64,000 nt of DNA from Callorhinchus milii (lineage: Eukaryota). This document shows positions 13,001 through 62,745 of this stretch, one piece after another; position 1 is the stretch's first letter, and every line of letters begins with the position of its first letter. Location of the stretch: NCBI RefSeq assembly GCF_018977255.1, contig NW_024704742.1, positions 62,250,001-62,314,000 of the forward strand. The letters run 5' to 3'. Below the pieces are notes generated by a model. It was not told the DNA's origin and did no database searches. It worked only from the letters and a program-made list of their open reading frames with translations. Position numbers and translations under genes: made by a program.

Positions 13001-16000
13001 TGGCTGCCGAGAGGCGGATTCTCTATTTGAGAAAGTCAGCGGAGCCCATAAGCAATATTTTGTGTTTCCCTTCCAGAAATATAACAACATTTACACAGCT
13101 CCTCTTTCATGTTGGAAGGACATCTCAAACCTTCAACACTGTCAGCTGGCACCTGAGCTGGATGTGGGAGTCAAGAGAGTGGGATGGTGAGTGGAAAAGA
13201 TGACCAAAAACTTGGTCAAAGAGTTAGTTCTTGACTGCCTTGAAAGAGGGGAGGAAGTCAGAAGGATTCCAGGAATGGAACTTCAGAGAGTGAGGGCAAA
13301 ATGGCGATGGTGGGGCAGATTGGGTGGGGGGGGGACATGAAACAAGCTGGTGTTTGCTGGGCTATGGGAATGGCCAGTTTGGGAGGTTGTATAGGTGTAG
13401 GGGGTTGGAATGAAGGATATAGAGAAGTTTTTCACTGGGGAAAGAGGGAGCTTTCTGTGAGGAAACTGCACGGCACTCGATGTCTGTCCTCGGCTCCCCC
13501 CCCTGCGGCAGCCGAGGGAAGCTACGATCGTCTGTCCTGACAGTGAGCCATAAAACACTGCCCTCAATTCTCCTTTCTTTCTGCTCTCTCACACTTTTTG
13601 TTTCTCTCTCTCCTTCTCTCATGCTCTCTCTCTCAATCACTCTCCCCTCTTTCTTGGAATCACTCTCTCTCTACCCCACAACTCTCATGCACTCCCTTGC
13701 ACACATTCTCACTCCCTCTCACATCCTCTCTCCTGTCACTCTCTTCCCTCTCACACGCTCATTCTCTCTCTGCTCTCTCCCCACATCTCTGTCAATCACT
13801 CTCTCTCCCTCTCTCTAACACAGTATCTCTGTCATTTCCTCTTTCTCTCTCCTCTCTCTTATTCAATCACTCTCTCCCCCTCCCCCAGATTCCACCCCCT
13901 CCTCTCAACCCCTCTCTCTCCTAATCAGCTGCATGGGGCTCTATCTGCAGTGGCAGGAGCTAGCTGTTGCTAAGGACGCGGTTGGTAAGAGACGTGCTTG
14001 CCTTCCTGACAGACGGCAGCAATGGCCAGCATTATATTGACTCTCCACACTGTGTCCTCCCAACCACCTGCCACTGCCATGAGAGAACATTCACTGGGGA
14101 TGGAGGGAGCGGAAATTGGAATGTTGGAAATGGTGTCAGGACGGATAAAATGACCTGCCGGGCCAGAGGCGGCCAATGGGCCAACAATTGGACCACGATG
14201 ATCGAGAGCAACCATTGTCAACCTCAGAATGGGAGAAGGTGTGGGATACCCCATTTGTCCACTATATGCTAAAGCTACTTCATGGAGTATATTAAACACC
14301 CCATGACCCCAAGAGGTGGCCTTTGCTTGACAACCCATCTTGGAGAAGCAGGGATCGTTTCACAACATTGTTGGACATTTCTTAAAATCTACAGCTTCTG
14401 GGACTCAATCCTTAGCACTGCATAAAGATAAAAGTAAAGTCTACCTTACATTCACAGCTAGGAAAAAAAACTGGCTCAGAAAGCAGTCCTGGTTGCCAGA
14501 AAATGTATCCCATGGCAGTGGAATCATACTCCACCATCCAAAGGATGGCACCCCTGACAATGCAACACATCCCCAAACACTGCATTTGAATGTCAGCTTG
14601 GACGATGTGAGTTCAAGTCTCGACGTGGGATTTGAACCCACAACCTTCTAACCCAAAGACGAGAGTGCTACCATTGAGCCAAGCTGATAGACGAACTTTA
14701 GACTATTCTCTAACAAGTCCTCCAACTTCTTTTTGGAAGTATTGGCAACTTCTTTTTAATGCACATTACCTTGTAGGATATTTCAAAGTTTTCACCTCCC
14801 CAGATCTGAAGACCAGGATCATACAGCCCCAGTTCAAAAAAGAAATCTCTTTCAATAGCAAACAACCCCCCAGCCATGGCAGGGGATCTGTGAAGGTCAT
14901 TGTTAAAAGAATACACAACAAATTAGTAATTTCAATGAAAACAAATGATACAATTCTTGTATTTTTACTGTTAGATATCTTCTTAACTATCCTGAGTTTC
15001 AAAAGCAAAATCTAAATATATAACAATTTAAATCTGCAGCAGTGCACTCTTCCAAGAAGCAAATTTCTGGTCAATCTCCTAAATCAAGAAGTAATCAAAC
15101 ACCAATATAGAATCATAGAATATTACAGCACAGAAGGAGGCCATTGGCCCATTGTACCTGTGCCAGCTCTTTGGAAGAGCTCCCCAATCAGTCCCACTCC
15201 CCTGTTGTTTCCCATATCCTTGCAAACATATAGATCCTTTAAAAAGTTTAATAATCCTTGCATTTAATACAGCCCTTTATCAATCATCGAGACATCATAA
15301 AGGGCTTCACAGGAATTTACTGTGACTGCATGTGTAGGCAAATGCAGCAGCCAAGGTGCACACAGCAACATCTCACAAACAGCCATGAAGAAAATAGCCA
15401 ATTCTGATTGGGGGGTTGTTGGCTAGGATACTTTAAATAGTGCCAGGGGATTTTTAACGTCCACCTGAACAAGCAGTTGGTTTAAAGGCTCATCCAAAGG
15501 TCGGCACCCCCGATAATGCAGCATACCCTCAGCACTGCACTATAATGTCAGCCTGGACCATAGGGTCTCCAACTAGGCAATCACCACCAGGTGATGCTTT
15601 CGCTCATGATCAAAAAGACAAAAGAGGGAGCAATAGAAGCTTGGTTATTGAGTCCAATTGAAAATGAAGCCAGATGCACAAAGTATTTCATGCATCTCTA
15701 AATATAAACTTTAATGTTTAAACTGTGGTAAATATTACTCCTTCCTCTTGTTTTAATTGAGCATGCGAGAGATTCCACCTAGCAATATTTAACTGGTTGG
15801 AGACCCCTGGCCTAGACTGTGAGTTTGAAGTTTCAACCTTCTAACTCAGAAACGATAGTGAACTGGAACTAGGCTAACAAGTACAACAGGGAACCATACA
15901 TATTGCAAATGAAAAACCTCTGATAATAGTAAAGCACCTTAATTACATACAATTACCATCTATTAGGTATAAAACTTAAAAAAGAAAGCAATACAATTGA

Positions 16001-19000
16001 ATCCAATTCATGACTTTTGACCTTTTTTGCCCAAGAAGAATCTTTTGTTGTTCCCGCTGTACTCACTGATGTCAGTGCAATTAGACTTGTATGTTACAAA
16101 GGTATTCAAATACAATATATTGGTTGCTTATTGTTGATTTAAGATCAGGCAATTGTTTCAGATTGTTTTTCATGTGGTTAACTATTTGAATGCAAGTGTG
16201 GAACCATTGATCTTCATTTCCTTATGCTGCGCTTTGCCCACAGAATATACAGTCAATTCACTAAACAATATATTCATGCCTTTCTATGTTTCCATGATAA
16301 TTTCCTTTATGGCCCCAGTTTGATCTGATGTATAAATTGAATTTCTTGCTCCATGTTAAAATTATGCTTTACTCCAAGTTGTATCCAACATAAGCCCCTA
16401 GTTACTTCCCCCATTTTACAAGAATAATGAAAGTTCAAAGGTTCTAAATTCGAGTCATTTTACATTGTATATAAAAAAAGCAACATGTGATTTGTAATAC
16501 TTCAATCCATTTCTTTTTGTTAAAATAACATTTTTAAAGCACATTCAAATTCAAGGAAGTAAAGATTTATTAAAAGCTGATATTGCACTTTGCTTTTAAG
16601 AAGTTAAAGCAATTAGGAAATTTGCCTTACTATCTAGAATTGCATGCAGTGTCAGACTTCATGCAGAGTCAAAGCACTTTTTATTGTCAGATCTGCAGAT
16701 TATTAAAGTCTCATGATCAGGTAAAGTGAGCCCCAGGTGATAAGAACAAGGAAAAACTTACTTTTGTCAGGGAGTGGGAAAAGGAGAACCACTTGCACCT
16801 TATACAAGGAAAACCCAGAGAAAATTTGAGGATATCAGAAAGGAAAAGAGGAATTAAGTTAAAGCAAACCGCACTCACTAAATTCCAAGGAGCTATTAAT
16901 ATTTAACTTTCACATCAGCCATACTGAATATAAGTGCATGTAGACAAGAGTAGGAAGCACTATATTTACAGTGACCTTCATTTTCCAAATTAGTAAGAAA
17001 TAACATTTATGGTAATGATGTCAAAATGCCTCAAAGTACTTACACTAATTATTGTCAAGTGCAGTAATTGTTTTATGGTTACAGATTTTTTTAAAAAACT
17101 TGAAATCCAGCAGTAACTACAACCTTGTCTTATATAGATTCACTGGGCCTCAACCCATGAGAAGAAAAGGCTTTAATCTTTTGGTGAGATGCCCAAAACA
17201 TCCCCAAACATTGTTTTTAACATAAAGCCCTACAAATGTTTGCAGGAACACAAATGTGAGCGATTTGCTTTAATTAACAACACAAACATGTAAACAAAAT
17301 AATTAATGCATGAAAACATCTACTATCTGAAATACTGTGATTAGAACTACAGAATACTTTTTTTCTTTAGAGAAGATTAGTGCTGCTTCTTATTTTCTAC
17401 AAGACCGAACATATTATTGCAGGTAAAAACAAAAATTAAGGATCGACCAATATTTAGTGCCAGAACACACAAAAAGTTTGATTCTCGCAAGCTATAACAC
17501 AGTGCACTATTGTATATGAACTACTATGGGATCCTGTATATCACAGAATTCAGTATTTGTTGAAAACATTATGTTTTCAATGAATCCATATGGATCTGTG
17601 GTACATGACAGTGATGGGTAGGATTATGTGTCTGGGCTATGGACAGGAGGATGGTGGCAATTCTCTCAAGCATTTCATACTGAGTTGGGCTATGCATCAT
17701 GTGGTTGGCTTAGAAAAATTCTAGTGCCTGTTGTCCACCTAGCAAGATTTCAAACCTGTGTTTGTGAAATGTCTAATTACCAATTTTTGGGGATTGGCTG
17801 AGTCTCAAACAAATTATAATGTCCAACTAATGGTTTCACAACCAGTGAAGCCTCACCATTAAATCCCAACCTTACTCAAAATGAGGTTGTGATACCTTGG
17901 TTCATTGCACATGTGCACAGCCATCGAGCAAACTTCTTGAGTGCCTGCCAATCCCAATATTATTTAAGCTTTAAACGAATCAATGCTATCTCTGTAGTGA
18001 CTATCTTCTGGGGGTGGGGGGATGTGCTGAGGTAAACAGTAGTTCATTGGGATTGAACTGGCTCCAGGATGACGAGTCTGCCAATAAAATAGTGGAATTG
18101 CCTTCTGTTACTGACTGAGTTGTCCAGATCCTGAGTCAAGTAGGTCCACAGTACTGTTGATGATGGAGCAGGGAACCAATCAGCAGGACTTGGTAGGTAC
18201 AGAGCAGTCCCTGGGGAATGGGAATTTTTCTCACTTGGCTCCCAGTTGATCAAATATGACTGTAAAAGTATACTGTATAATTAAATTACTCTCAGCAAAA
18301 AAAGTGTAATTTCATTCTGTTTTGGGATGATTCTCTTGCAAGATATTCATTTTTGCGATTTTGACAGCATTTTGCACCTTGCCCTAACATTAATATTATA
18401 TTTGGGATCAAAACAATCAAATTTGGGAAGGAGAAGCCCAATTCATACTTCCCGTTTTACAATCCATTAGAATCACATTAATTTACAGCACAGAAGAAGG
18501 CCATTCGGCCCATTCTGTCCGTGATCGTTCTTTTAAGAGAATCCTTTCAGTCCCATTTAACTGCCATTCCCTATTTACTCCTTTTTAGATATTTATCTAG
18601 TTCCCTTTTGAAAGCTAATATTGAGTTGATAAACAAGTGAAACACAAAATTGAATATTAATATTTTTTAATACCTGCCATGTGCTCAATTTCCTTAAACA
18701 CTTGTAATGCTGCCCTGAACATTCCTGGGCCTAGACTATGAATGCCTGAGAATTTTCAAATAACTCAAAAGACTACAAGCCAGGAGACAAGGCAATATTG
18801 GTCGATCCCTACTGACAATAATTTATGTTAGAGGCTATTAGAATTTATATTAGAAATTTTGTTAAATATGCAATTTGCTTGAGGCTCTGGAAATGATTTT
18901 AGAAATCATTTTACTGTAGCTTTTTTTAGTTCATTGTGAGCATTTTAATTCTGATAGGGAAAGCAAAAACAGCGAAATACACAAATATTGTTAATATAAT

Positions 19001-22000
19001 AGAAAAAGAATCTTACAAAGATACTTCGCTAGAATGAGTAACTTAAAGAAAAAGTGACAATGATCAAATGTGATCAAGATTACCGATACGGTTCAGTTTT
19101 ATGTTTTCTCCTTTCCTTCTCCCGCTTGGCCAAAGGGACACGCTTCCACAACATGCTCCAATCCCATGCTCCTCTAGCAAACCCATCTTCGTCACCACCC
19201 CCTTGAGGTGATATCTGGTAATTATTTCCACTTATGCCATCTATGAGTGGCACAGTACATGCAGTTCTGCAGATTTGGCAATATCGTTGTTGGACCAGGG
19301 AAGGTAGGTGAAGGGATCCATGCGTCAAATACATAATTGGAATTAGGGTGAGGGATGCAGCAGAAGGATCCATGCGAGAAAGGGAAAATGACAGGACTTA
19401 GACATGTCAAACAATTCAATTCATCAGTAATTACCGATAAGGCTCAGTTTTATGCTTCCTTCTGGCCTTTTCACGACTGTTTAACGGCATGCGTTTCCAT
19501 AGTAAGCTCCAATCCCAGGCCCCTCTGGCAAAACCATTCTCATCCCCACCTTGTTGTGGTTCAATGGTAAAGTCATTGCCATCTATGTAATCTATAAGGG
19601 GAACTGTACATGTAGTTCTGAAACAAATAACAGATACTGAAATAGATCACAATTAAGTGTATTCCCCATCAGATAGCACCTGCACATAAATTCTGGTGTG
19701 TTCAGTCAACAATTAATAAATAAACTGACTTAAAATAGGACACTAGAAAATAAGACATTTTATATCTTATTAAGTGCTGAACCCTGGATGCACAGAAGCT
19801 ACACAGAAAGATGCAGCAATTTGAATTACTGTTATCTAAAGCTACTGTGTAGAATCATTTAGTTAGTTTAATGTGCAATGTTTAAGTTCTGTGATGATAA
19901 TGCTGTGGTTATGGGTTCAAATGAACTGTAGCAGCTGCACTGCCACATTAGCTTTGACTAGGATAATACTAGCTTTGACTTTGAATAGAATACAACTCTG
20001 AAATAATATTCTAGCCACTGTTCAACTAGATTTCAGATAAAATTGCCTTGGGTTACCTGTCCTTAGCGATGGGAGCTACGAGTGATGCGTACCAGTTAGG
20101 TCCAACTTCACAATGTGCATCAAGATATATTAACACCTGAAAACACATTAGATAACTATTATTTAAATAAATCCATAACTCAGAATTTGTCAGGAACAAC
20201 AATAATATTTAGGTACAGCGCCTTTCATGTCAGGAGGATATCTCAAATGCTTCACAGGATTTACTGTAAGATGTAGTCATTGGGTATTTTATAGACGAAC
20301 ATGACAGCCAATTTATCCACAGAAATGTTCCACAAAGAGCCATGAAATTCTCTTCTCTTTTCATACAGTGTTGTGATATCTTTAATTTCCACCTGAACAG
20401 GAAGACCGGATCTCGATTTTAACATCTGAAGGACAGCATCTCAGAAAATGCAATGCAATACATTGAAGTGTCAGCCTGGACTATGTGAGTTCAAAGCCCT
20501 GACATGGGGCCACAGCCCACAGCCTTCTGACTGAAAGATGAGCTCCAGGACACCTGGGTTAGGAAGGGAAACATGCATGTCTATATGCAAATGTCCATGT
20601 AATAATAATAATCCTTGCATTCGAATTAGCGCCTATCACAACTTTGAGACATCTCAATGCGCTTCACAGAATATACTGTAAATTGAATTGCGCACAGCAA
20701 TAAACAGCCATGGGTTGAGTGACCAAAATATTATGATTATTTATTTATTTTGAAGGCATTATTACTCCCTGTCGAGTCTTGTAGTTTAGTGGTTAGAGCA
20801 CTCGTTGCAAGCGAGAGGACCTGGGTTCGATTCCCGGGCAGGGCGAAACGTTGTGCAAGTTTCCTTACTTCACACACCTCTGTTCACCTAGCAGTAAGTA
20901 GGAACCTGGTTGTTAGTCAATTGGCGAATCGCTTTCCGGGGGTAATAATCCCTCAAAAATAAAATTGGTCACTCAATACACGACTGTTTGGAGGACACTG
21001 CTGTGCGCAATTGGCTGCCGCATTTCGCTCATAAAATACAGTCAATTCACATTACAATATATTCTGTGAAGCGCTTTGAGACATCTCAACGATGTGATAA
21101 GGCGCTATATCAAATCCAAGGATTATTATTATTTATTATTATTAGTTGTGATTCCAAATAGCTATTGTCATGTTCAAGTCAACACTCATTTTCTAGGCTC
21201 ACAAGAACAGCACTGTGGTATGCTGTCTCAGCGCACAGCAGTGTTCCACAAACAGTCATGGACTGAGCGACAATTTTTTTTTTTGAGCGATTATTACCCC
21301 CGGAAAGCAATCTTCCAAATCTGAGTTCCTACTTACTGCTAGGTAAACAGAGGCATGTAGAGTAAGGAAACTTGCTTAAGGTTTTGGCCTGCAGGGAATC
21401 AAACCGGATCTTCTCACCTGTGGTGCGAGCGTGCTAACCATTACACTCCAAGACTCCTCACTACAGGACTCTACAAATATATGTGTGGTTTGAAAGAGGA
21501 AGGAATTTACTGTACTTGTCCAAGCTTTACTTTATTTACTTTTACTGTACCTGTCCAAGCTTAGCCTTTTGAGCACCAATGCTTCTTGCTTGAATTAACC
21601 CTTCTCTCCTTTCATTTCGAAATACTTTGACTAATCCATTCCATTGTTTCAGGTATTCCTCCAGTCGTTCTTTTAAATGAACTGCAGACAAGATCACAAA
21701 TCAGTCATAAGAATGATAATTATTTATGAAAAAAATGCAAAAATGCAATTCAGTTCTTTCCTACCCATTTTAACACTTAAAAAGGCTGCAAAACTAGTTG
21801 TGAATTATTCACTGAAATTACAATGTTTCTTAACAGATTCAATTTGATGATGCACCACATTTTTATCAACAGGAGCTGGTACAGTCAGACCTGCATTCCT
21901 AGGGCAAGTCAGAACACATGAAATGAATGGCTTCATTGTAACTTGTAACATTAACACCAATTTGACACATTGAAGGTAGACCTTGAAGTAAATTGTAGGA

Positions 22001-25000
22001 TGTAGATTATTTTATCAAATATTTAAACCAATACCAAACTGTATGTTCTTAAAGGTGTCAGTTCAGCTCAGTTTGTGACACTCTAGGTCAATAGGATGTG
22101 CATTGAAGACCCACATCATAGTCCAGGCAGACACTCCAGCGCAGTACTGATGAAGATACTTTCTTTTGGGTGAGACTTTAAGCACAGTCCGATAGTGAGC
22201 CCCTGTTCACATGCATGATAAAGAACCAATGTCACTATTTGAAAAGAGACGGGAGTTTTTCCAGAATCATAGCCTAAGGTCATCCAGATTAATAATAATA
22301 ATAATCCTTGCATTTGATATAGTGCTTTTCACATCTTCTAGACGTCTCAAAGCGCTTCACAGAATATGCTGTAAACTGAATTGACTGTATATTTGTGGGC
22401 GAAACGCATCAGTCAATTGCGCACAGCAATGTCCCACAAACAGTCGTGGATTGAAAATGAACAATTTATTATTGTTTTGTTTTGGAGGGATTATTATTAG
22501 GCGTGTGCAGTAAGGAAACTTGCCCATGGTTTTGCCCTGCCTGGAATTGAACCCAGATGTCTCGCTTGCAAGGCGAGCGCTCTAACCACTGAGCTACAGG
22601 ACTCCAGATTAATCGATCATTTGCTTTATTGCTGTTTTGTAGGAACTTGTCAGCACAAATTGCTGCCACGTTTGCTTACAAAACAGTCACTACACTTCAT
22701 AATAATTACTTTGCAACATTTTGGCATCAATACGCAGTTTTTTATTTCTCTATCTATAACAGGAGCAAATATTGTTTGGTCAGTTACGTGTCTGTCACCT
22801 GCAGAAACCCATCTCCATGATTAAGAGTATCCATATCAGGCAGAGTTCCACAAATACGTGTCACCTACATATGGAAATTTCCCTGTGTCTAGAATGGATT
22901 GTGTGCTCTCTCCCCAGAGAAAAACACTATAATCTAGAAAGTATTAGCATGGGTTGGAGAGAGCCACAATTTAGAGATCCCAGACTGTGCATTGGAGCAC
23001 TGTGGTGTTTAAAATATACAAAACAATATTCAAATGATTTGGGATTTCATAAGCATCACAATACAAAATATTTACATGAAACTCATCTTTCTTTCAAAAA
23101 ACTGAGAGAAAATTCACTACTAACTTTACTGCCATTAGGATCTGTGGCTCTGAGATAAATAAGGCCTATGAATGCCAAAAACCTGACAGCCAGCTCAACT
23201 ATTACCAGCTCCTATTATTGTTACGACCACAATTGTGGTGTTTGTGCAAGAAAGCCTTGCTAATTTAATACAGTCGTCAGCTCACCTCTGATGTCACTTT
23301 CTATACATTGCACACTGTAACAACTGATAAAGCACCTATAACATTTAGAATATCTTAAAGCACTTTACAAAGTTTCTGTGTAGTGAATGTATTTGCAGTC
23401 ACGCACTGCAGCCAATTTGATTACAATGACAGAGCAATTGAAGAGCTAGGTCTTAAAGGTGGTCTTTAAAGGAAGCAAGGTTAGGAGGTGAGTTAGAGGG
23501 ACTCCAAGACTGAATTCAGCCTGATTAAAGGTCATCAACCTGAAATGTTAATTCACTTTCCTCTCTCCATAGGTGCTGCCTGACTTGCTGAGTGTTCCCA
23601 GCAACTTCTGTTTTTATTTTGGAACCTTTAATGATTTGGACAGCACTAAAAGAAACAATGAGGGAGAGGAAAGCAAAATATGTCTGAAGGTTAAGGTAAT
23701 ATCTAGACTAAGCTACAGTTTCAGTGAACACCTGTCACTTCTCCATTGGGGTAGTCAGATTGGCTAAAAGCATAAGAACCTTCGGAAACCTACAAAAATT
23801 GGAGCGAGGTTCAGATTTACCTTTGGTTTTAATTGCGTTCCAGTTCAAAGCCATAAAGCTTAAAAACCTGTGATTCAAACTGGAATGATTCAGTCACGAG
23901 TTTAATTCTGGATTTCTTGCCCGTAGCCACTAGAAATTCCAGGGACATTAAAATGTAATGCCAGCCCGCAATGACAAACATGGTAAATGATGCCCTCTTG
24001 TGGGTATCCTAAAAGATGAATTATTCTATTTGTACAGGCCACAACATCAAAAAATCATATGAAGGAATAAAATAATGACTTAGGTATAGAGTAATTACAT
24101 TGATACGCTTTTACTTTGTACTGAATAAGAATAGTGTTTGAATGCAAATAACAATATATTACCTTTGTTACTGAAGTCATCAATCATAACAATTTCTGCT
24201 AGGTATTTTCTGGGCGTCCGCTTGATAACACTGTGGACAGTCCTCATAAGAGTCGACCACCCTTCATTATGGAAGACGATAATGATACTAGATGTTAGCA
24301 AGTTCTCGTCATAATGCCAATACTTGCACCTGGAAAGAATAAAATAATACTCAGTAACCTAATGGTATTTTACCTCATTTTTAGCAATGAAAAATTAAAA
24401 GTAGGGCAATATGCAGAATCTAACGCAACACCATTCTTTAGACCAATCGTTTCTTCACAAATTAAGTTGGAAAATAGTTAAAGATGAGTATCCTCAAAAT
24501 GGAAGTCTTGAAAATTCTTTATTACAAACCAAAAACAAGGAGAAAACTGCAAAATGTTATGGTACAACATGAAACATATGCATTCATTTTAATTAAACAT
24601 CGAAATCCAATCCAACTCAGACCCATAAACAAAGACAACAGATATTTCTTCCCACTTCTTTCAACATGCAGCAACTACATGAATCACTGATTCACATGCA
24701 ATAACTGAATGAATCACTGACTCTGTATAAAAGCACTGTTGTTTGTTTGAATTTTGTTATTCAGCTGTACCACACAGCAATGCCTTGCTGTTTTTCAACT
24801 GTATTTTAATTTAAGAACTCGGTTGATGTTAAATAAGACAACCATTACCCTTAGACAAGAGGCTCCTTCACCTCACTACCTGTCTAGTACAGTGTTGGCA
24901 AAAGCACGGATTTGGCATTTCACTTCAGACACAAACTTAAAAAATGAGCACAAAAAAAGAGACCTAGTCATAGTTGTTGGAAATCGTATCCAACGTATAT

Positions 25001-52000: not shown

Positions 52001-55000
52001 TGCTGTCCTTTGGATGAGATGTTAAACTGAAGTCCCGTCTTCCTGTTCAGGTAGATGTTAAAGAACCCATTTCACCACCTAAAAAAAGAGAATTTCTCTA
52101 ACAATTCCCCAGATAAAATTGGTCAGTTACTTCATGTCTGTATGTGGGACATTGCTGTGGGCGAATTTGCTGTCAGGTTTCCAAACCAATATGCAGTTAC
52201 TACCCTTCACAGTAACATCCTGTGAAGGGCTTTGAGATGTCTCAACAACTTAAGGTGCTATATGAAATCGAAGGATTATTATTATTATTGAAGTGGCAAG
52301 CTAGACTGTGACTTCAAAGTCTCAACGTGGCTGTCAATGATCTTAGATAACATTATAGCCGATGAGGAAAAAAGGATACCCGGAAAAAAACTGGGAAGAT
52401 CAGAGATTTTAAACTGTGATGACTGGGAATGTGCTATGAATGACAAGTGACAACACCATTAATAGAGTAGCCAGAGGCCTAATAGAAAGCAGCAATAAGA
52501 GGGACTGCTGCAGATTTAATCACTTTAAAACTCAGTCTTTGACTGTCTTTCCTGATCATACCTGGGCACCTCTTACTTTCCAGGTTGTTTACTGGGCTGA
52601 TTAAGTGTTGAATTGCTTTTCCAAATTGCTCATGTTGAAGTAATTGTTCTACTAATATGCTGCAGCAATATCTATAAGAACAAGATGCACTCCTGCAATG
52701 TTCTGCTGCTGTGATTAATCATTATACCTTTATGTCAGGGAGTAAGCAGAGTGCTCTTACAGATTAACTTGATTTTGCTCAATTAATAATAATAATAATA
52801 ATACTTGCATTTGATATAGCGCTTTTCACGTCGGGAGGACATCCCAAAGCGCTTCACAGAATACACTGTAAAGTGAAATGACTGTATATTTTGTGGGCGA
52901 AACGCAGCAGCCAATTGCACACAGCAGTGTCCCACAAACAGTCATGGATTAAGTGACCAATTTTTTTTATTCACGAAAAAAAACGATCCACCCATCAACT
53001 AACAACCGGGGTTCCTACTTACTGCTAGAGGCGTGTGGAGCAAGGAAACTTGTCCAGGAATCAAACCCAGGTCTCTCGCCTGCGAGGCGAGTGCTCTAAC
53101 CACTGAGCTACAGGACTCAGTATCCATAAGGATTATTATTTTTCATTATAATTTTTTTTAAATTCGGATTTGAGCACATAGTGTAGATTAACAACACACT
53201 GCAGTACCAGAGGAGTGCTGCATTATTAGGGATGCCGTTATTTGGGTGAGACATTGAACTGAGATCCCATCTGTCTGTTCAGTGGACGTGATAGATCCCA
53301 TGCCACTGTTTGGAAATAAACAGAAGTTGCATTCAGTATTCTGATCAACATCGTTTAGATTCACTGATCATTCACTTTAGGATTATTTGTGGATTCTTGC
53401 TATGCCCAAAATGGCTGCCATGGTTAGCTACAAACACAGTTATAACATGACATGAATTATGTCAATGTCTTGAGATTTTTTAATGTTATTGGACTTTATT
53501 TAAATGCAAGGATTATTATTGGCCAGATCTGATATAAACAGTTAGAGAAAGCCCTTTGGGCAGTGGAACTGAATTATTTTATTGTGAGTGAGGATTATTT
53601 TACTTATACAACTTCAAAAAACATTACTCTCCTTTTCAGGGTTTTGAAGCAAGTTGAGATATCTTCCTGATGTAAAAGCCACTACATGTAAATTGTTCTT
53701 TATTTATTTCTCGATTCTGTAAATCCTTCCATTTTATATAACGCCTTATCATGTCATCAAGACATCTTCAAAATGCTTCACAGAATATACTGTAAAGTGA
53801 ATTGACTGTATAAATTGCCACCTCTTAAAAGGAATATGCTCAAATTGCCTACCTGCAGGATAGTTGCGTTTCGCCTAGAAAGTTTACAGTCAATTCACGT
53901 TACACGAAAATTCTGTGAAGCGCTTTGAGATGTCTCCAAGACGTGATAAGGCGCTATATCAAATGCAAGGATTTCTATTATTACCTTGCCCCAGGTGAAC
54001 AGAAGAAATTGCCCTGGATGGATGAAAGACTCATATTTTGCCTCACAATCTTGCCCAAGTTTGGGAGTTGCGTAAAGAGGTACCATTCTTGTTTGGTAGA
54101 AAATCACTGTTGCAATATAATGGTTCCAGCCCAACTGCTCAAGGAGTTCACTCCTTCTAATCCTTCTGCTTAGGTACAGGAATGAGTATGCCACTCTTAA
54201 GCCTGATCTGAGTTTTTTAACAGGATTTTTTAAAAAAACTTACTCACTTTACATAATACCTTATATTTTAGATACTCCAGACGAGACGCTATCTGCGAAA
54301 AAGGGTATTATTTATTGTCAATGCAAGTTATTGTTGTTATTTCCAAGTATTATATATTTTTAAAATGCCCCAATTAATTATGCATTAATTAATGCATAAT
54401 TTTATAAACTGCTCATAAAATAAGTCATTAAACTTAGTTAAATAAAACTCTTTGTAATGAGGATTCCATCACAATTCAATCAGCAGAATTAACGAGTTCT
54501 CTTTTTAAAACACACATAATTGTGAGGATGTGGAATTGGCTGGGGTCTAAGCACCGTGGTATGTCCTCCTGATGTGAAAGGCACTATACAAATGTAATTT
54601 GTTGTTATCATTCTTGTTATGTGGGAAATCACTGTAGTAATTGAGGTTAGGAATGCCTTTTGCATCAGCTTGGCTTAGTAGCACTCTCACCTCTGAATCA
54701 ACCTCACCCTGTTCCACTGGCTCCCCATCCCCCAAAGGATAGAGTTCAAAATCCTTGTCCTTGCCTTCAAAGCCTTCCACAGCCTTGTTCCTTCCTACCT
54801 GTGTGACCTGCTAACACCGTATAAACCTGGCCGTCCCTCCGCTCAGCAAGCTCCCGCCTGCTCCAAGTCATCCACACGGCCCACCATTGGCGGTCGGGCC
54901 TTCAACCTCTCTGCCCCCACCCTTTGGAACTCCATCCCAGTCCCTTCACCTTGCTCCCTCCCTTGCCTCCTTCAAGGCGCATCTCAAGACCCTCCTCTTC

Positions 55001-57057: not shown

Positions 57058-57375
57058 GGAGTCCTGTAGCTCAGTGGTTAGAGCAATCGCCCTGCAAGTG
57101 AGACACCTGGGTTAAATTCCAGGCAGGGAGAAACCTTGGGCAAGTTTCCTTACTCCACACGCCTAATAATAATCCCTCCAAAAACAAAAAAAATAATAAA
57201 TTGGTCATTTTCAATCCACGACTGTTTGTGGGATACTGCTGTATGCAATTGGCTGCCATGTTTCGCCCACAAATATACGGTCAATTCACTTTACAGTCTA
57301 TTCCGTGAAGCGCTTTGAGACGTCGAGAAGACGTGAAAAGCGCTATATCAAATGCAAGCATATTATTATATTATA
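57058..57375 (+). mobile_element. tRNA-derived SINE, short variant, full length, inside a minus-strand CR1 tail
   Basis: ggagtcctgtagctcagtggttagagc...gcgctatatcaaatgcaagca(tta)n; aaatg on both sides. Confidence 0.9.
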
Positions 57376-60069: not shown

Positions 60070-60295
60070 TAGCTGTTGTTGCTCAGTGGTTAGAGCTCTC
60101 GCCTCGCAAGTTAGAGACCTGGGTTTGATTCCCAGCAGGGCGAAATGTTAGGCAAGTTTCCTTACTCCAAATGCCTCTGGTTATCTAGTAGTAAGTAGGA
60201 ACCTGGTTGTTAGTTGATTGGTGGATTGCTTTTCTGCGAGGAATAATTCCTTCAAAAAAAATAATAACAATAAATTGGTAACTCAATCCAAGACT
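60070..60295 (+). mobile_element. tRNA-derived SINE, long variant, 3'-truncated
   Basis: gctcagtggttagagc...gggtttgattccc...aaattggt. Confidence 0.75.
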
Positions 60296-62238: not shown

Positions 62239-62745
62239 ATAATAATAATAATAATCCTTGCATTTGATATAGCGCTTTTCACGTCGGGAGGACGTCCCAA
62301 AGCGCTTCACAGAACACACTGTAAAGTGAATTGACTGTAATAATAATAATAATAATCCTTGCATTTGATATAGCGCTTTTCACGTCGGGAGGACGTCCCA
62401 AAGCGCTTCACAGAATATACTGTAAAGTGAATTGACTGTATATTTGTGGGCGAACGCGGCAGCCAATTGCGCACAGCAATGTCCCACAAACAGTCGTAGA
62501 TTGAAAATGACCAATTTATTATTGTTTTGGGTTTTTTGGAGGGATTATTATTAGGCGTGTGGAGTAAGGAAACTTGCCCAAGGTTTCGCCCTGACTGGAA
62601 TTGAACTCAGGTCTCTCACTTGCAAAGCGAGTGCTCTAACCACTGAGCTACAGGACTCCACGAACTCCAGCAATGTCCCACAAACAGTCATGGATTGAAA
62701 ATGACCAATTTATTATTGTTTTTGGTTTTGGAGGGATTATTATTA
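62239..62745 (-). mobile_element. tRNA-derived SINE, short variant, with duplicated tail and duplicated middle segment
   Basis: Full copy 62340-62659; extra tail copy 62239-62339; extra body copy 62668-62745. Confidence 0.85.

What the first reader, a model, noticed from the sequence alone, without database searches (positions are those of the whole stretch)
19084..19617. Tandem homologous exon-6 pair: probable mutually exclusive exons swapping part of the GALNT7 catalytic domain
Seen in the sequence: two 183-nt exons, each with ag|A...CG|gtaat boundaries, the same phase, and no stops or indels. They are 46/60 aa identical with many synonymous differences, which points to an old duplication under purifying selection rather than an assembly artefact. 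The differences cluster in [14 protein letters not shown] vs [21 protein letters not shown] vs SMLWKRV, and LNSREKA vs LAKREKE; 6a is more acidic. Established: this segment lies between the DXH and WGGEN motifs of GT27 enzymes, a region that contributes to the acceptor-peptide groove. Inference: one gene makes two equal-length enzymes with different (glyco)peptide preferences. Exon 6b resembles the canonical mammalian sequence as I recall it. I also recall a 6a-like alternative exon in mammals. If that is right, the switch is conserved across jawed vertebrates and the exon itself is not new, but I know of no functional characterisation.
Basis: partly seen in the sequence, partly recalled or inferred. 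Interest (0 to 1): 0.85.

Follow-up and report, generated by a model that had tools for sequence, protein, structure and literature searches.

The report
Known alternative exon-6 pair in GALNT7
A cartilaginous-fish copy of the sugar-adding enzyme gene GALNT7 carries two interchangeable versions of exon 6, an ancient either/or arrangement already annotated from lamprey to human, so it is real but not new, and what the switch does is still untested.

Summary
On the minus strand lie two 183-nt exons, 6a (19617..19435) and 6b (19266..19084). Both have cag|A...CG|gtaat borders and the same phase. They share 46/60 residues and 128/183 bases. The gene is a GALNT7 orthologue: solved human GalNAc-T7 is the best match, and DAH lies in exon 5 and WGGEN in exon 7.

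Synonymous sites between the copies are saturated (pS 0.87, pN 0.16), so the duplication is old. In a 59-row exon tree the a-type and b-type exons form separate clades (96/91 and 97/86). Each clade contains a lamprey sequence.

The pair is already catalogued for human GALNT7: ENST00000265000 versus ENST00000505308, last common ancestor "Vertebrata" (Martinez-Gomez 2021 supplement). It also appears as RefSeq isoforms X1/X2 in sharks and skates.

Points beyond the catalogue entry:
- The non-canonical 6a type is the more conserved of the two.
- Tyr10 and Gln22 are fully diagnostic of the a-type.
- Exon 6b has a weak 3' splice site behind a 128-nt AG-free zone that holds two GCAUG motifs.

Either/or use in this species could not be tested, because the read-laying run failed. 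I found no functional study of the two forms.

The parts
20057..20136 (-). GALNT7 exon 5 (80 nt), encodes ...YLDAHCE... (the DxH motif). It ends with AG, the first two bases of the Arg codon completed by the A that starts 6a or 6b.
19618..20056 (-). Intron 5-6a, 439 nt. The 3' splice site of 6a has a pyrimidine tract next to the AG (0.70 pyrimidine in the last 20 nt scored) and only a 17-nt AG-free zone.
19435..19617 (-). Exon 6a (183 nt, a-type). It has the invariant a-type marks Tyr10, Glu19 and Gln22, and is 97% identical to the Heterodontus isoform X2 exon.
19267..19434 (-). Inter-exon intron, 168 nt, from gtaatt to ctgcag. No significant RNA fold (z = +1.25).
19269..19396 (-). 128-nt AG-free zone in front of the 6b 3' splice site. 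Only 3 of 3493 AG-to-AG gaps in the gene are 125 nt or longer. yUnAy branch-point candidates lie 82, 76, 58 and 42 nt from the 3' splice site. The pyrimidine tract is distal.
19314..19381 (-). Two copies of a 16-nt direct repeat (19366-19381 and 19314-19329, 14/16 identical). Each carries GCAUG in the RNA sense (GCAUG at 19375..19371 and 19323..19319). These are candidate Rbfox-type elements. This is a lead only.
19084..19266 (-). Exon 6b (183 nt, b-type, the form closest to the crystallised human enzyme). It is 90% identical to the exon in the basking-shark, manta, sawfish and Rhinoraja skate b-type models.
14770..14887 (-). Exon 7 (118 nt), encodes (R)SPAMAGGLF...[11 protein letters not shown]. 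Its first base A completes the Arg codon begun by the CG of 6a or 6b. The intron from 6b to exon 7 is 4196 nt.

Best explanation
This is the vertebrate GALNT7 exon-6 pair: two tandem-duplicated, homologous exons, of which a mature mRNA normally carries one. Either choice gives an enzyme of the same length. The two enzymes differ in 14 of the 60 wholly exon-encoded residues of a 61-residue stretch of the GT-A catalytic domain, between the DxH and WGGEN motifs.

Shown: the duplication predates the lamprey-gnathostome split, and both copies have been kept by purifying selection. The a-type is frozen more tightly than the b-type that all structural work has used.

Inferred: the swapped stretch includes the counterparts of GalNAc-T2 groove residues Phe280, Trp282 and Tyr284, plus an adjacent acidic loop. 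The switch therefore most likely retunes acceptor (glyco)peptide recognition, not catalysis.

Inferred, weaker: exon choice is set at the weak, distant-branch-point 3' splice site of 6b and by the two GCAUG elements in the 168-nt intron between the exons. Frame, steric hindrance and a stable RNA fold do not appear to set it.
For: Anatomy. The exons have equal length, equal phase and intact splice sites. Every junction (5-6a, 5-6b, 6a-7, 6b-7) reads Arg in frame.

Gene identity. Human GalNAc-T7 (6iwq) is the best solved match for both peptides and for the full-length relative.

Age and selection. pS is 0.865 (saturated) and pN 0.161, ratio 0.19. In the exon tree of 59 rows, the a clade holds 25/25 a-type rows with support 96/91. 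The b clade holds 26 b-type rows plus one unnamed row with support 97/86. Each clade holds a lamprey sequence, and single-copy invertebrate deuterostomes lie outside. In 20 species with both exons, mean pairwise identity is 86.7% for a and 80.1% for b. The a-type is the more conserved in 165 of 190 pairs, equal in 18 and less conserved in 7.

Either/or use elsewhere. Of 183 vertebrate proteins retrieved, 97 carry a only and 64 carry b only. Same-species X1/X2 pairs occur in Heterodontus, Amblyraja, Leucoraja, Rhinoraja, Amia and Polyodon. All 7 full-length proteins from Logan contigs of 2.2-3.7 kb carry exactly one exon. I read those contigs as spliced transcripts because they are barely longer than the coding sequence of about 1.95 kb, while the gene here spans more than 50 kb.

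Prior record. Human event 84 in the supplementary table of PMC8373072 has the same order and length, with a 137-nt intron between the exons by its coordinates.

Groove. The GalNAc-T2 peptide groove uses Val255, Leu270, Phe280, Trp282 and Tyr284 (passages of PMC4432651). By spacing from the conserved WDW motif, exon position 38 corresponds to Tyr284. That position is Leu in 17/20 a-type exons and Met in 20/20 b-type exons.

Splice sites. The AG-free zone is 128 nt before 6b and 17 nt before 6a. The intron holds two GCAUG against 0.147 expected, Poisson P about 0.01.
Against: No RNA evidence from this species was obtained.

Co-inclusion or double skipping stays in frame, because 183 = 3 x 61. 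Of the 183 database models, 22 carry both exons in the order a then b, 21 of them exactly 61 residues apart. These include turtle 'isoform X3' models. Some co-inclusion therefore cannot be excluded, although many of these are ab initio 'hypothetical protein' models.

The Proteomics column for the human event is blank in the PMC8373072 table.

The groove mapping rests on motif spacing and not on coordinates. My AlphaFold model of the a-isoform was too poor to use (mean pLDDT 45.2).

The GCAUG and AG-free-zone reading comes from one genome with no cross-species check, and neither GCAUG is the optimal UGCAUG.
Confidence: 0.85

Rival explanations
1. The two isoforms are both real, but they differ in something other than acceptor preference. 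[quoted passage not shown]
For: Nine of the 14 differences lie in surface-type loop sequence (positions 10-22) and three in the basic tail (46-51). The motif residues W34, D35 and W36 are invariant in both types. No assay of either kind was found in my searches.
Against: Position 38 corresponds by motif spacing to the groove residue Tyr284 of GalNAc-T2. The exon holds the counterparts of five of the eight groove residues listed for T2. The a-type acidic loop is invariant over the whole vertebrate range, which fits a binding surface.
Confidence: 0.25
2. One copy (6a) is used so rarely in this species that it is effectively a conserved-looking relic. The gene then makes essentially one enzyme.
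For: No RNA evidence was obtained for this species. The human event has no proteomics flag in PMC8373072.
Against: Exon 6a has intact splice sites and a stronger pyrimidine tract than 6b. It is 97% identical to the shark exon. The a-type is the better conserved of the two types. A silent exon would not stay this constrained since before the lamprey split.
Confidence: 0.05
3. Both exons are commonly spliced in together, giving a 61-residue tandem insertion. They would then not be mutually exclusive.
For: Co-inclusion is in frame, since CG + A reads Arg at a 6a-6b junction. The 168-nt intron is long enough to splice, and the branch-point candidates lie 83 nt or more from the 6a donor. 21 of 183 models hold both exons 61 residues apart.
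Against: 7 of 7 full-length Logan-contig proteins hold exactly one exon. Paired X1/X2 isoforms have normal length. Duplicating a core strand plus the WDW groove motif of a GT-A fold would be unlikely to fold; this last point is inference.
Confidence: 0.04

Closest known systems
Human GALNT7 tandem exon duplication-derived substitution: ENST00000265000 (b-type exon, chr4:173298115-173298297) versus ENST00000505308 (a-type exon, chr4:173297795-173297977). It is event 84 in the supplementary table of Martinez-Gomez et al. 2021, PMC8373072 (supplement rows seen).
   Same: Same gene, same exon, same 183-nt length, same a-then-b order, and a short intron between the exons (137 nt in human by those coordinates, 168 nt here). 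The same diagnostic residues are present. That table gives the last common ancestor of the event as Vertebrata, which agrees with my tree.
   Different: Only the species differs. The window's 6b has Gly at position 10, where the other b-type exons examined have Val, Ser or Ala, and it sits on a longer end branch (0.12).
RefSeq isoform pairs X1/X2 of N-acetylgalactosaminyltransferase 7 in cartilaginous fishes (Heterodontus francisci, Amblyraja radiata, Leucoraja erinacea, Rhinoraja longicauda), with single-type models in other sharks and rays (names as given by the source).
   Same: One isoform carries the a-type exon (95-97% identical to the window's 6a). The other carries the b-type exon (87-90% identical to the window's 6b). 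Overall length is equal at 653-654 aa.
   Different: No protein identical to the window's exons was listed. The species of this window seems absent from the protein collection, or not annotated there.
Drosophila PGANT9A/PGANT9B splice switch (Ji et al. 2018, PMC6115407; passages read).
   Same: It is in the same enzyme family. One gene makes two isoenzymes by alternative versions of one exon that change the charge of a loop and hence the preference for charged acceptor peptides. This is the precedent for how the GALNT7 switch could work.
   Different: The PGANT9 exon 8 variants lie in the alpha subdomain of the lectin domain, not in the catalytic domain. There is no homology of the event. My initial recollection that it was the same region was wrong.
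GALNT13 / Pgant5 / gly-5 tandem duplicated exon substitutions (PMC9741552 main-text passage; PMC8373072 table row).
   Same: Another GalNAc-transferase with tandem duplicated alternative exons. The authors list it as recurring in vertebrates, arthropods and nematodes.
   Different: The human GALNT13 event is C-terminal, in the lectin domain. It is an independent event.

Membership tests
GALNT7 (polypeptide GalNAc-transferase 7, CAZy GT27) orthologue | Best match to GalNAc-T7 and not to other isoenzymes | tested here: met
   6iwq (human GalNAc-T7) scores 87.5 bits with 6a and 100.1 bits with 6b. The next best is T10, at 25.7 and 19 bits. Named homologues are N-acetylgalactosaminyltransferase 7 throughout.
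GALNT7 (polypeptide GalNAc-transferase 7, CAZy GT27) orthologue | DxH and Gal/GalNAc-T (WGGEN) motifs flanking the segment, with a catalytic plus ricin-type lectin architecture | tested here: met
   DAH is in exon 5 and WGGEN in exon 7 of the window. tblastn of a 654-aa shark orthologue finds window exons covering residues 44-654. Homologues carry PF00535, PF02709 and PF00652.
GALNT7 (polypeptide GalNAc-transferase 7, CAZy GT27) orthologue | Strict glycopeptide-preferring transferase activity | not testable with these tools
   Known for the human enzyme from passages of PMC10901373 and PMC9996832.
Tandem-duplicated mutually exclusive exons (tandem exon duplication-derived substitution) | Adjacent homologous exons of equal length and phase with intact splice sites | tested here: met
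   Both are 183 nt with cag|A...CG|gtaat borders and share 46/60 residues at E = 1e-36.
Tandem-duplicated mutually exclusive exons (tandem exon duplication-derived substitution) | Orthologous exon pairs in other species that group by exon type and not by species | tested here: met
   a clade 25/25 rows (96/91); b clade 26 rows plus one unnamed row (97/86).
Tandem-duplicated mutually exclusive exons (tandem exon duplication-derived substitution) | Mature transcripts carry exactly one of the two exons | tested here: inconclusive
   In other species: 97 a-only, 64 b-only and 22 both, out of 183 models; 7/7 full-length Logan-contig proteins carry one. In this species no reads could be laid.
Tandem-duplicated mutually exclusive exons (tandem exon duplication-derived substitution) | A built-in mechanism enforcing exclusivity (frameshift/NMD, too-short intron, or competing RNA structures) | tested here: not met
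   183 = 3 x 61, so double inclusion stays in frame. The intron is 168 nt, with branch-point candidates 83 nt or more from the donor. The intron fold has z = +1.25, and only short AT-rich inverted repeats were found. This feature is not required by the catalogue definition, and most vertebrate pairs lack a known mechanism.
PGANT9-type charge-loop splice switch | Alternative exon encodes the lectin alpha-subdomain loop over the active site | tested here: not met
   The PGANT9 variants are in exon 8, in the lectin alpha subunit. The GALNT7 pair aligns to catalytic-domain residues 263-322 of chain 6iwq_A. It is an analogy of mechanism only.

The most novel reading that the evidence does not exclude
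All biochemistry and the crystal structures of GalNAc-T7 used the b-type exon. The a-type exon has an invariant Tyr10/Glu19/Gln22 acidic loop and Leu at the Tyr284-equivalent position, and it is the more constrained copy. It may specify a distinct isoenzyme with its own glycopeptide or charge preference. That would in effect be an unstudied extra GalNAc-transferase activity present in all vertebrates. It may be switched on tissue-specifically through the GCAUG elements and the distant-branch-point 3' splice site of exon 6b. It could also bear on the open question of how T7 recognises a neighbouring GalNAc.
Probability: 0.35. Interest if true: 0.55.

Novelty: already known. Interest (0 to 1): 0.25.

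Why it matters
GalNAc-T7 is one of the few strict glycopeptide-preferring initiators of mucin-type O-glycosylation. A 2023 review calls the structural basis of its neighbouring-site preference "not known" (PMC9996832). An either/or exon that rewrites part of the acceptor groove, and that has been held since before lampreys and jawed vertebrates split, is a natural pair of variants for addressing that question.

The exon pair itself is already annotated and catalogued. The value here is confirmation in one more lineage plus some comparative details: a-type constraint, diagnostic residues and splice-site asymmetry. It is not a discovery.

A practical point: the two exons have identical length. 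RT-PCR with flanking primers, as used for human "exon 6" in PMC13039441, cannot tell them apart.

Tried and rejected
RNA evidence
- The look-up of sequencing runs listed no holder on record as RNA. Runs X3-X5 held small shares that I could not lay, so they count for nothing.
No junction counts exist.

Structure
- The AlphaFold2 model of the a-isoform relative P0027, built with a 31-row alignment, was poor. Mean pLDDT was 45.2 and the exon region was below 50. I did no fold search and no mapping of the 14 differences.
- I tried to obtain a residue-level GalNAc-T2 alignment through an unnamed representative (P0279). It proved closer to T1 and PGANT9. Only the Phe280, Trp282 and Tyr284 equivalences (from motif spacing) are used. 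Val255 and Leu270 are left unmapped.

RNA structure
- The 168-nt intron folds no better than shuffles (z = +1.25).
- The inverted repeats in 18600-20200 are short and AT-rich. No docking or selector pair is proposed.
- Steric exclusion is rejected on distances. Frame-based exclusion is rejected on arithmetic.

Literature
- Searches for GALNT7 with "mutually exclusive", "MXE", "Rbfox" or "exon inclusion", and for GalNAc-T7 with "splice variant", found no functional study of the pair.
- GALNT7 does not occur in the 10 supplementary files held for Hatje 2017, in the one held for PMC9741552, or in the main text of the Lam et al. preprint. bioRxiv supplements are closed, so its own table was not seen.
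- PGANT9 as a homologous event was rejected.

Other
- Earlier scan notes held nothing on GALNT7.
- A first dN/dS script failed because pS exceeds the Jukes-Cantor limit (redone).
- A first motif count used a wrong spacing (redone in 54).
Full report
What is there

Read on the minus strand, the interval holds two exon-like segments of 183 nt each: 6a at 19617..19435 and 6b at 19266..19084. Each is bounded by cag|A and CG|gtaat. The 60 complete codons of each translate without stops. The peptides share 46/60 residues with no gaps, BLASTP E = 1e-36. The exons share 128/183 bases, and 26 of the 46 conserved residues use different codons. The repeat detected at DNA level stops about 4-5 bases beyond each exon (191 nt, 71%).

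Which gene

Both peptides hit solved human GalNAc-T7 (6iwq, chain residues 263-322) far above any other isoenzyme: 87.5 bits for 6a and 100.1 bits for 6b, against at most 25.7 bits for T10. A shark orthologue (P0027, 654 aa) maps by tblastn to eleven further exons on the minus strand, from 56325 down to 3922, besides the pair. Residues 1-43 find nothing in the window, so exon 1 lies outside it and the pair is exon 6.

Exon 5 (20136..20057) encodes DAH and ends in AG. Exon 7 (14887..14770) begins with A and encodes WGGEN. All four productive junctions read Arg in frame, and so would a 6a-6b junction. Introns are 439 nt (5 to 6a), 168 nt (6a to 6b) and 4196 nt (6b to 7).

Over the exons, the window is about 84% identical to both shark and skate proteins and 82% to gar. 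It therefore comes from a cartilaginous fish roughly equidistant from sharks and skates. A chimaera would fit, but that is inference. No protein identical to the window's exons was listed.

Age and selection

Between the two copies, Nei-Gojobori counts give pS = 0.865 (beyond saturation) and pN = 0.161, a ratio of 0.19.

I cut the 60-residue segment from 51 vertebrate rows, 4 named ambulacrarian GALNT7-like proteins and 4 unnamed close relatives. The vertebrate rows were the two window exons, 13 models holding both exons, and isoform pairs or single models of 23 more entries. The tree (59 rows, 60 columns, LG+G4) puts all 25 a-type rows in one clade (96/91). It puts all 26 b-type rows plus one unnamed row in another (97/86). 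The two clades join with support 98/92, and the single-copy outgroups lie outside. With only 60 columns, many inner forks are open.

Petromyzon isoform X2 is a-type and Lethenteron isoform X1 is b-type, so both types exist in lampreys. I did not see both in one lamprey genome.

In 20 species (lampreys pooled) with both exons, mean pairwise identity is 86.7% among a and 80.1% among b. The a-type is more conserved in 165 of 190 pairs, equal in 18 and less conserved in 7. Columns 10 (Tyr in a; Gly, Val, Ser or Ala in b) and 22 (Gln in a; Gly or Trp in b) are fully diagnostic. Glu19 is invariant in a. Position 38 is Leu in 17/20 a-type exons and Met in 20/20 b-type exons.

The outgroups have b-like residues at columns 10 and 22, but a-like Leu38 and an a-like basic tail. 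Neither copy is simply the ancestral one, and Tyr10 and Gln22 look derived.

Either/or use

Of the 183 vertebrate proteins returned by my two searches, 97 carry a only and 64 carry b only. Another 22 carry both, always in the order a then b, and 21 of those at exactly 61 residues apart. These counts reflect my queries, not natural frequencies.

Same-species pairs of equal length are annotated in Heterodontus, Amblyraja, Leucoraja, Rhinoraja, Amia and Polyodon. Seven full-length proteins come from Logan contigs of 2.2-3.7 kb, too short to hold introns of a gene spanning more than 50 kb here. I read these contigs as spliced transcripts. All seven carry exactly one exon: two carry a and five carry b.

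Many of the double-exon models are ab initio "hypothetical proteins". Turtle "isoform X3" models, one of them a cluster of 68 members, also hold both. Because 183 = 3 x 61, co-inclusion is not punished by frameshift.

For this species I have no RNA evidence. The run search listed no holder on record as RNA, and the single read-laying run was lost to a filter.

What enforces or regulates the choice

Frame does not enforce it. Steric hindrance is unlikely: the intron is 168 nt, and every yUnAy candidate inside the AG-free zone is 83 nt or more from the 6a donor. The intron has no stable fold (z = +1.25), and I found only short AT-rich inverted repeats nearby.

The two acceptor sites are asymmetric. 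Exon 6a has a pyrimidine tract next to its AG and a 17-nt AG-free zone. Exon 6b has a purine-rich last 25 nt, a distal pyrimidine tract and a 128-nt AG-free zone. Only 3 of 3493 AG gaps in the gene are that long. Long AG-free zones are, from my own knowledge, a mark of distant branch points and regulated exons.

The same intron holds two copies of a 16-nt repeat, each with GCAUG, against 0.147 expected (Poisson P about 0.01). A GCAUG placed downstream of 6a and upstream of 6b could favour 6a and repress 6b where Rbfox proteins are present. This is a lead from one genome. I could fetch no other vertebrate intron to test conservation.

Likely function

Passages of PMC4432651 list the GalNAc-T2 peptide-groove residues as Val255, Leu270, Phe280, Trp282 and Tyr284, plus Phe361, His365 and Phe377. 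They also describe a second GalNAc site formed by Phe280, Tyr367 and Phe377. The first five fall in the stretch homologous to this exon. By spacing from the conserved motif, exon positions 34, 36 and 38 correspond to Phe280, Trp282 and Tyr284. Positions 34 and 36 are invariant in both exon types, and 38 is the Leu/Met switch. I could not map Val255 and Leu270 residue by residue.

GalNAc-T7 is described as a strict glycopeptide-preferring enzyme. Its enhancement comes from a putative GalNAc pocket in the catalytic domain (PMC10901373 passages), and the molecular basis "is not known" (PMC9996832 passages).

The best-supported reading is therefore two isoenzymes with the same chemistry but a retuned acceptor groove and an adjacent loop of different charge. 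The Drosophila PGANT9A/B switch shows that such a charge swap can redirect a GalNAc-transferase. That event lies in the lectin domain and is not homologous (PMC6115407 passages).

What is known

The human pair is in GENCODE. It is event 84 in the supplementary table of Martinez-Gomez et al. 2021 (PMC8373072). The table records transcripts ENST00000265000 and ENST00000505308, type Internal, last common ancestor Vertebrata, a flag for the Lam et al. set, and a blank Proteomics column. Its coordinates give the same order, the same 183-nt length and a 137-nt intron.

I found no functional study. A 2026 paper reports reduced inclusion of human GALNT7 "exon 6" in endometriosis as exon skipping (PMC13039441 passages). 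It does not mention the alternative exon.

Verdict

It is already annotated and catalogued.
- confirmation in one more cartilaginous-fish genome;
- explicit a and b clades reaching lampreys;
- the stronger constraint on the non-canonical exon;
- the diagnostic residues;
- a splice-site asymmetry with GCAUG elements that could be tested.

Noticed in passing
window 22532-22603(-), 62586-62657(-), 53054-53110(-), 60072-60142(+), 57063-57127(+), 20776-20845(+): Six matches to the Rfam tRNA model (31-54.6 bits) lie inside GALNT7 introns or upstream of exon 2. So many in one gene suggests tRNA-derived SINE copies and not working tRNA genes.
   Followed up: no
P0004, P0006 (turtle 'isoform X3', 718 aa) and 19 other models: Database models carry both exon-6 versions in tandem, exactly 61 residues apart. 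One of them is a cluster of 68 member sequences. These are either annotation artefacts or evidence that in-frame co-inclusion occurs in some lineages.
   Followed up: partly
window 19236-19238 (codon 10 of exon 6b): The window's 6b has Gly at diagnostic position 10, where the other b-type exons examined have Val, Ser or Ala. It also sits on a longer end branch (0.12) than the other cartilaginous-fish b exons.
   Followed up: no
window 19257-19262, 19165-19169, 19152-19156 (exon 6b) and 19488-19492 (exon 6a): Further GCAUG motifs lie inside the exons. Three are in 6b, including a full UGCAUG at bases 4-9 of the exon. One is in 6a.
   Followed up: no
window 20039-20050 and 18788-18799: A 12-nt complementarity (11/12) links the start of intron 5 (bases +7 to +18) with a site about 290 nt downstream of exon 6b. 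If real, the pairing would loop out both alternative exons. It may well be chance in 1.6 kb of AT-rich sequence.
   Followed up: no
P0017 (Leuresthes tenuis isoform X2, 766 aa): This model has the a-type and b-type segments 138 residues apart instead of 61. That suggests retained or mispredicted sequence between the exons.
   Followed up: no
P0193, P0195, P0198, P0192 (unnamed Logan/ENA proteins): These are single-copy GALNT7-like segments, 56-71% identical to both exon types. Three fall just outside the vertebrate a+b clade and one falls inside the b clade. They may come from non-vertebrate chordates or hagfish and could date the duplication.
   Followed up: partly
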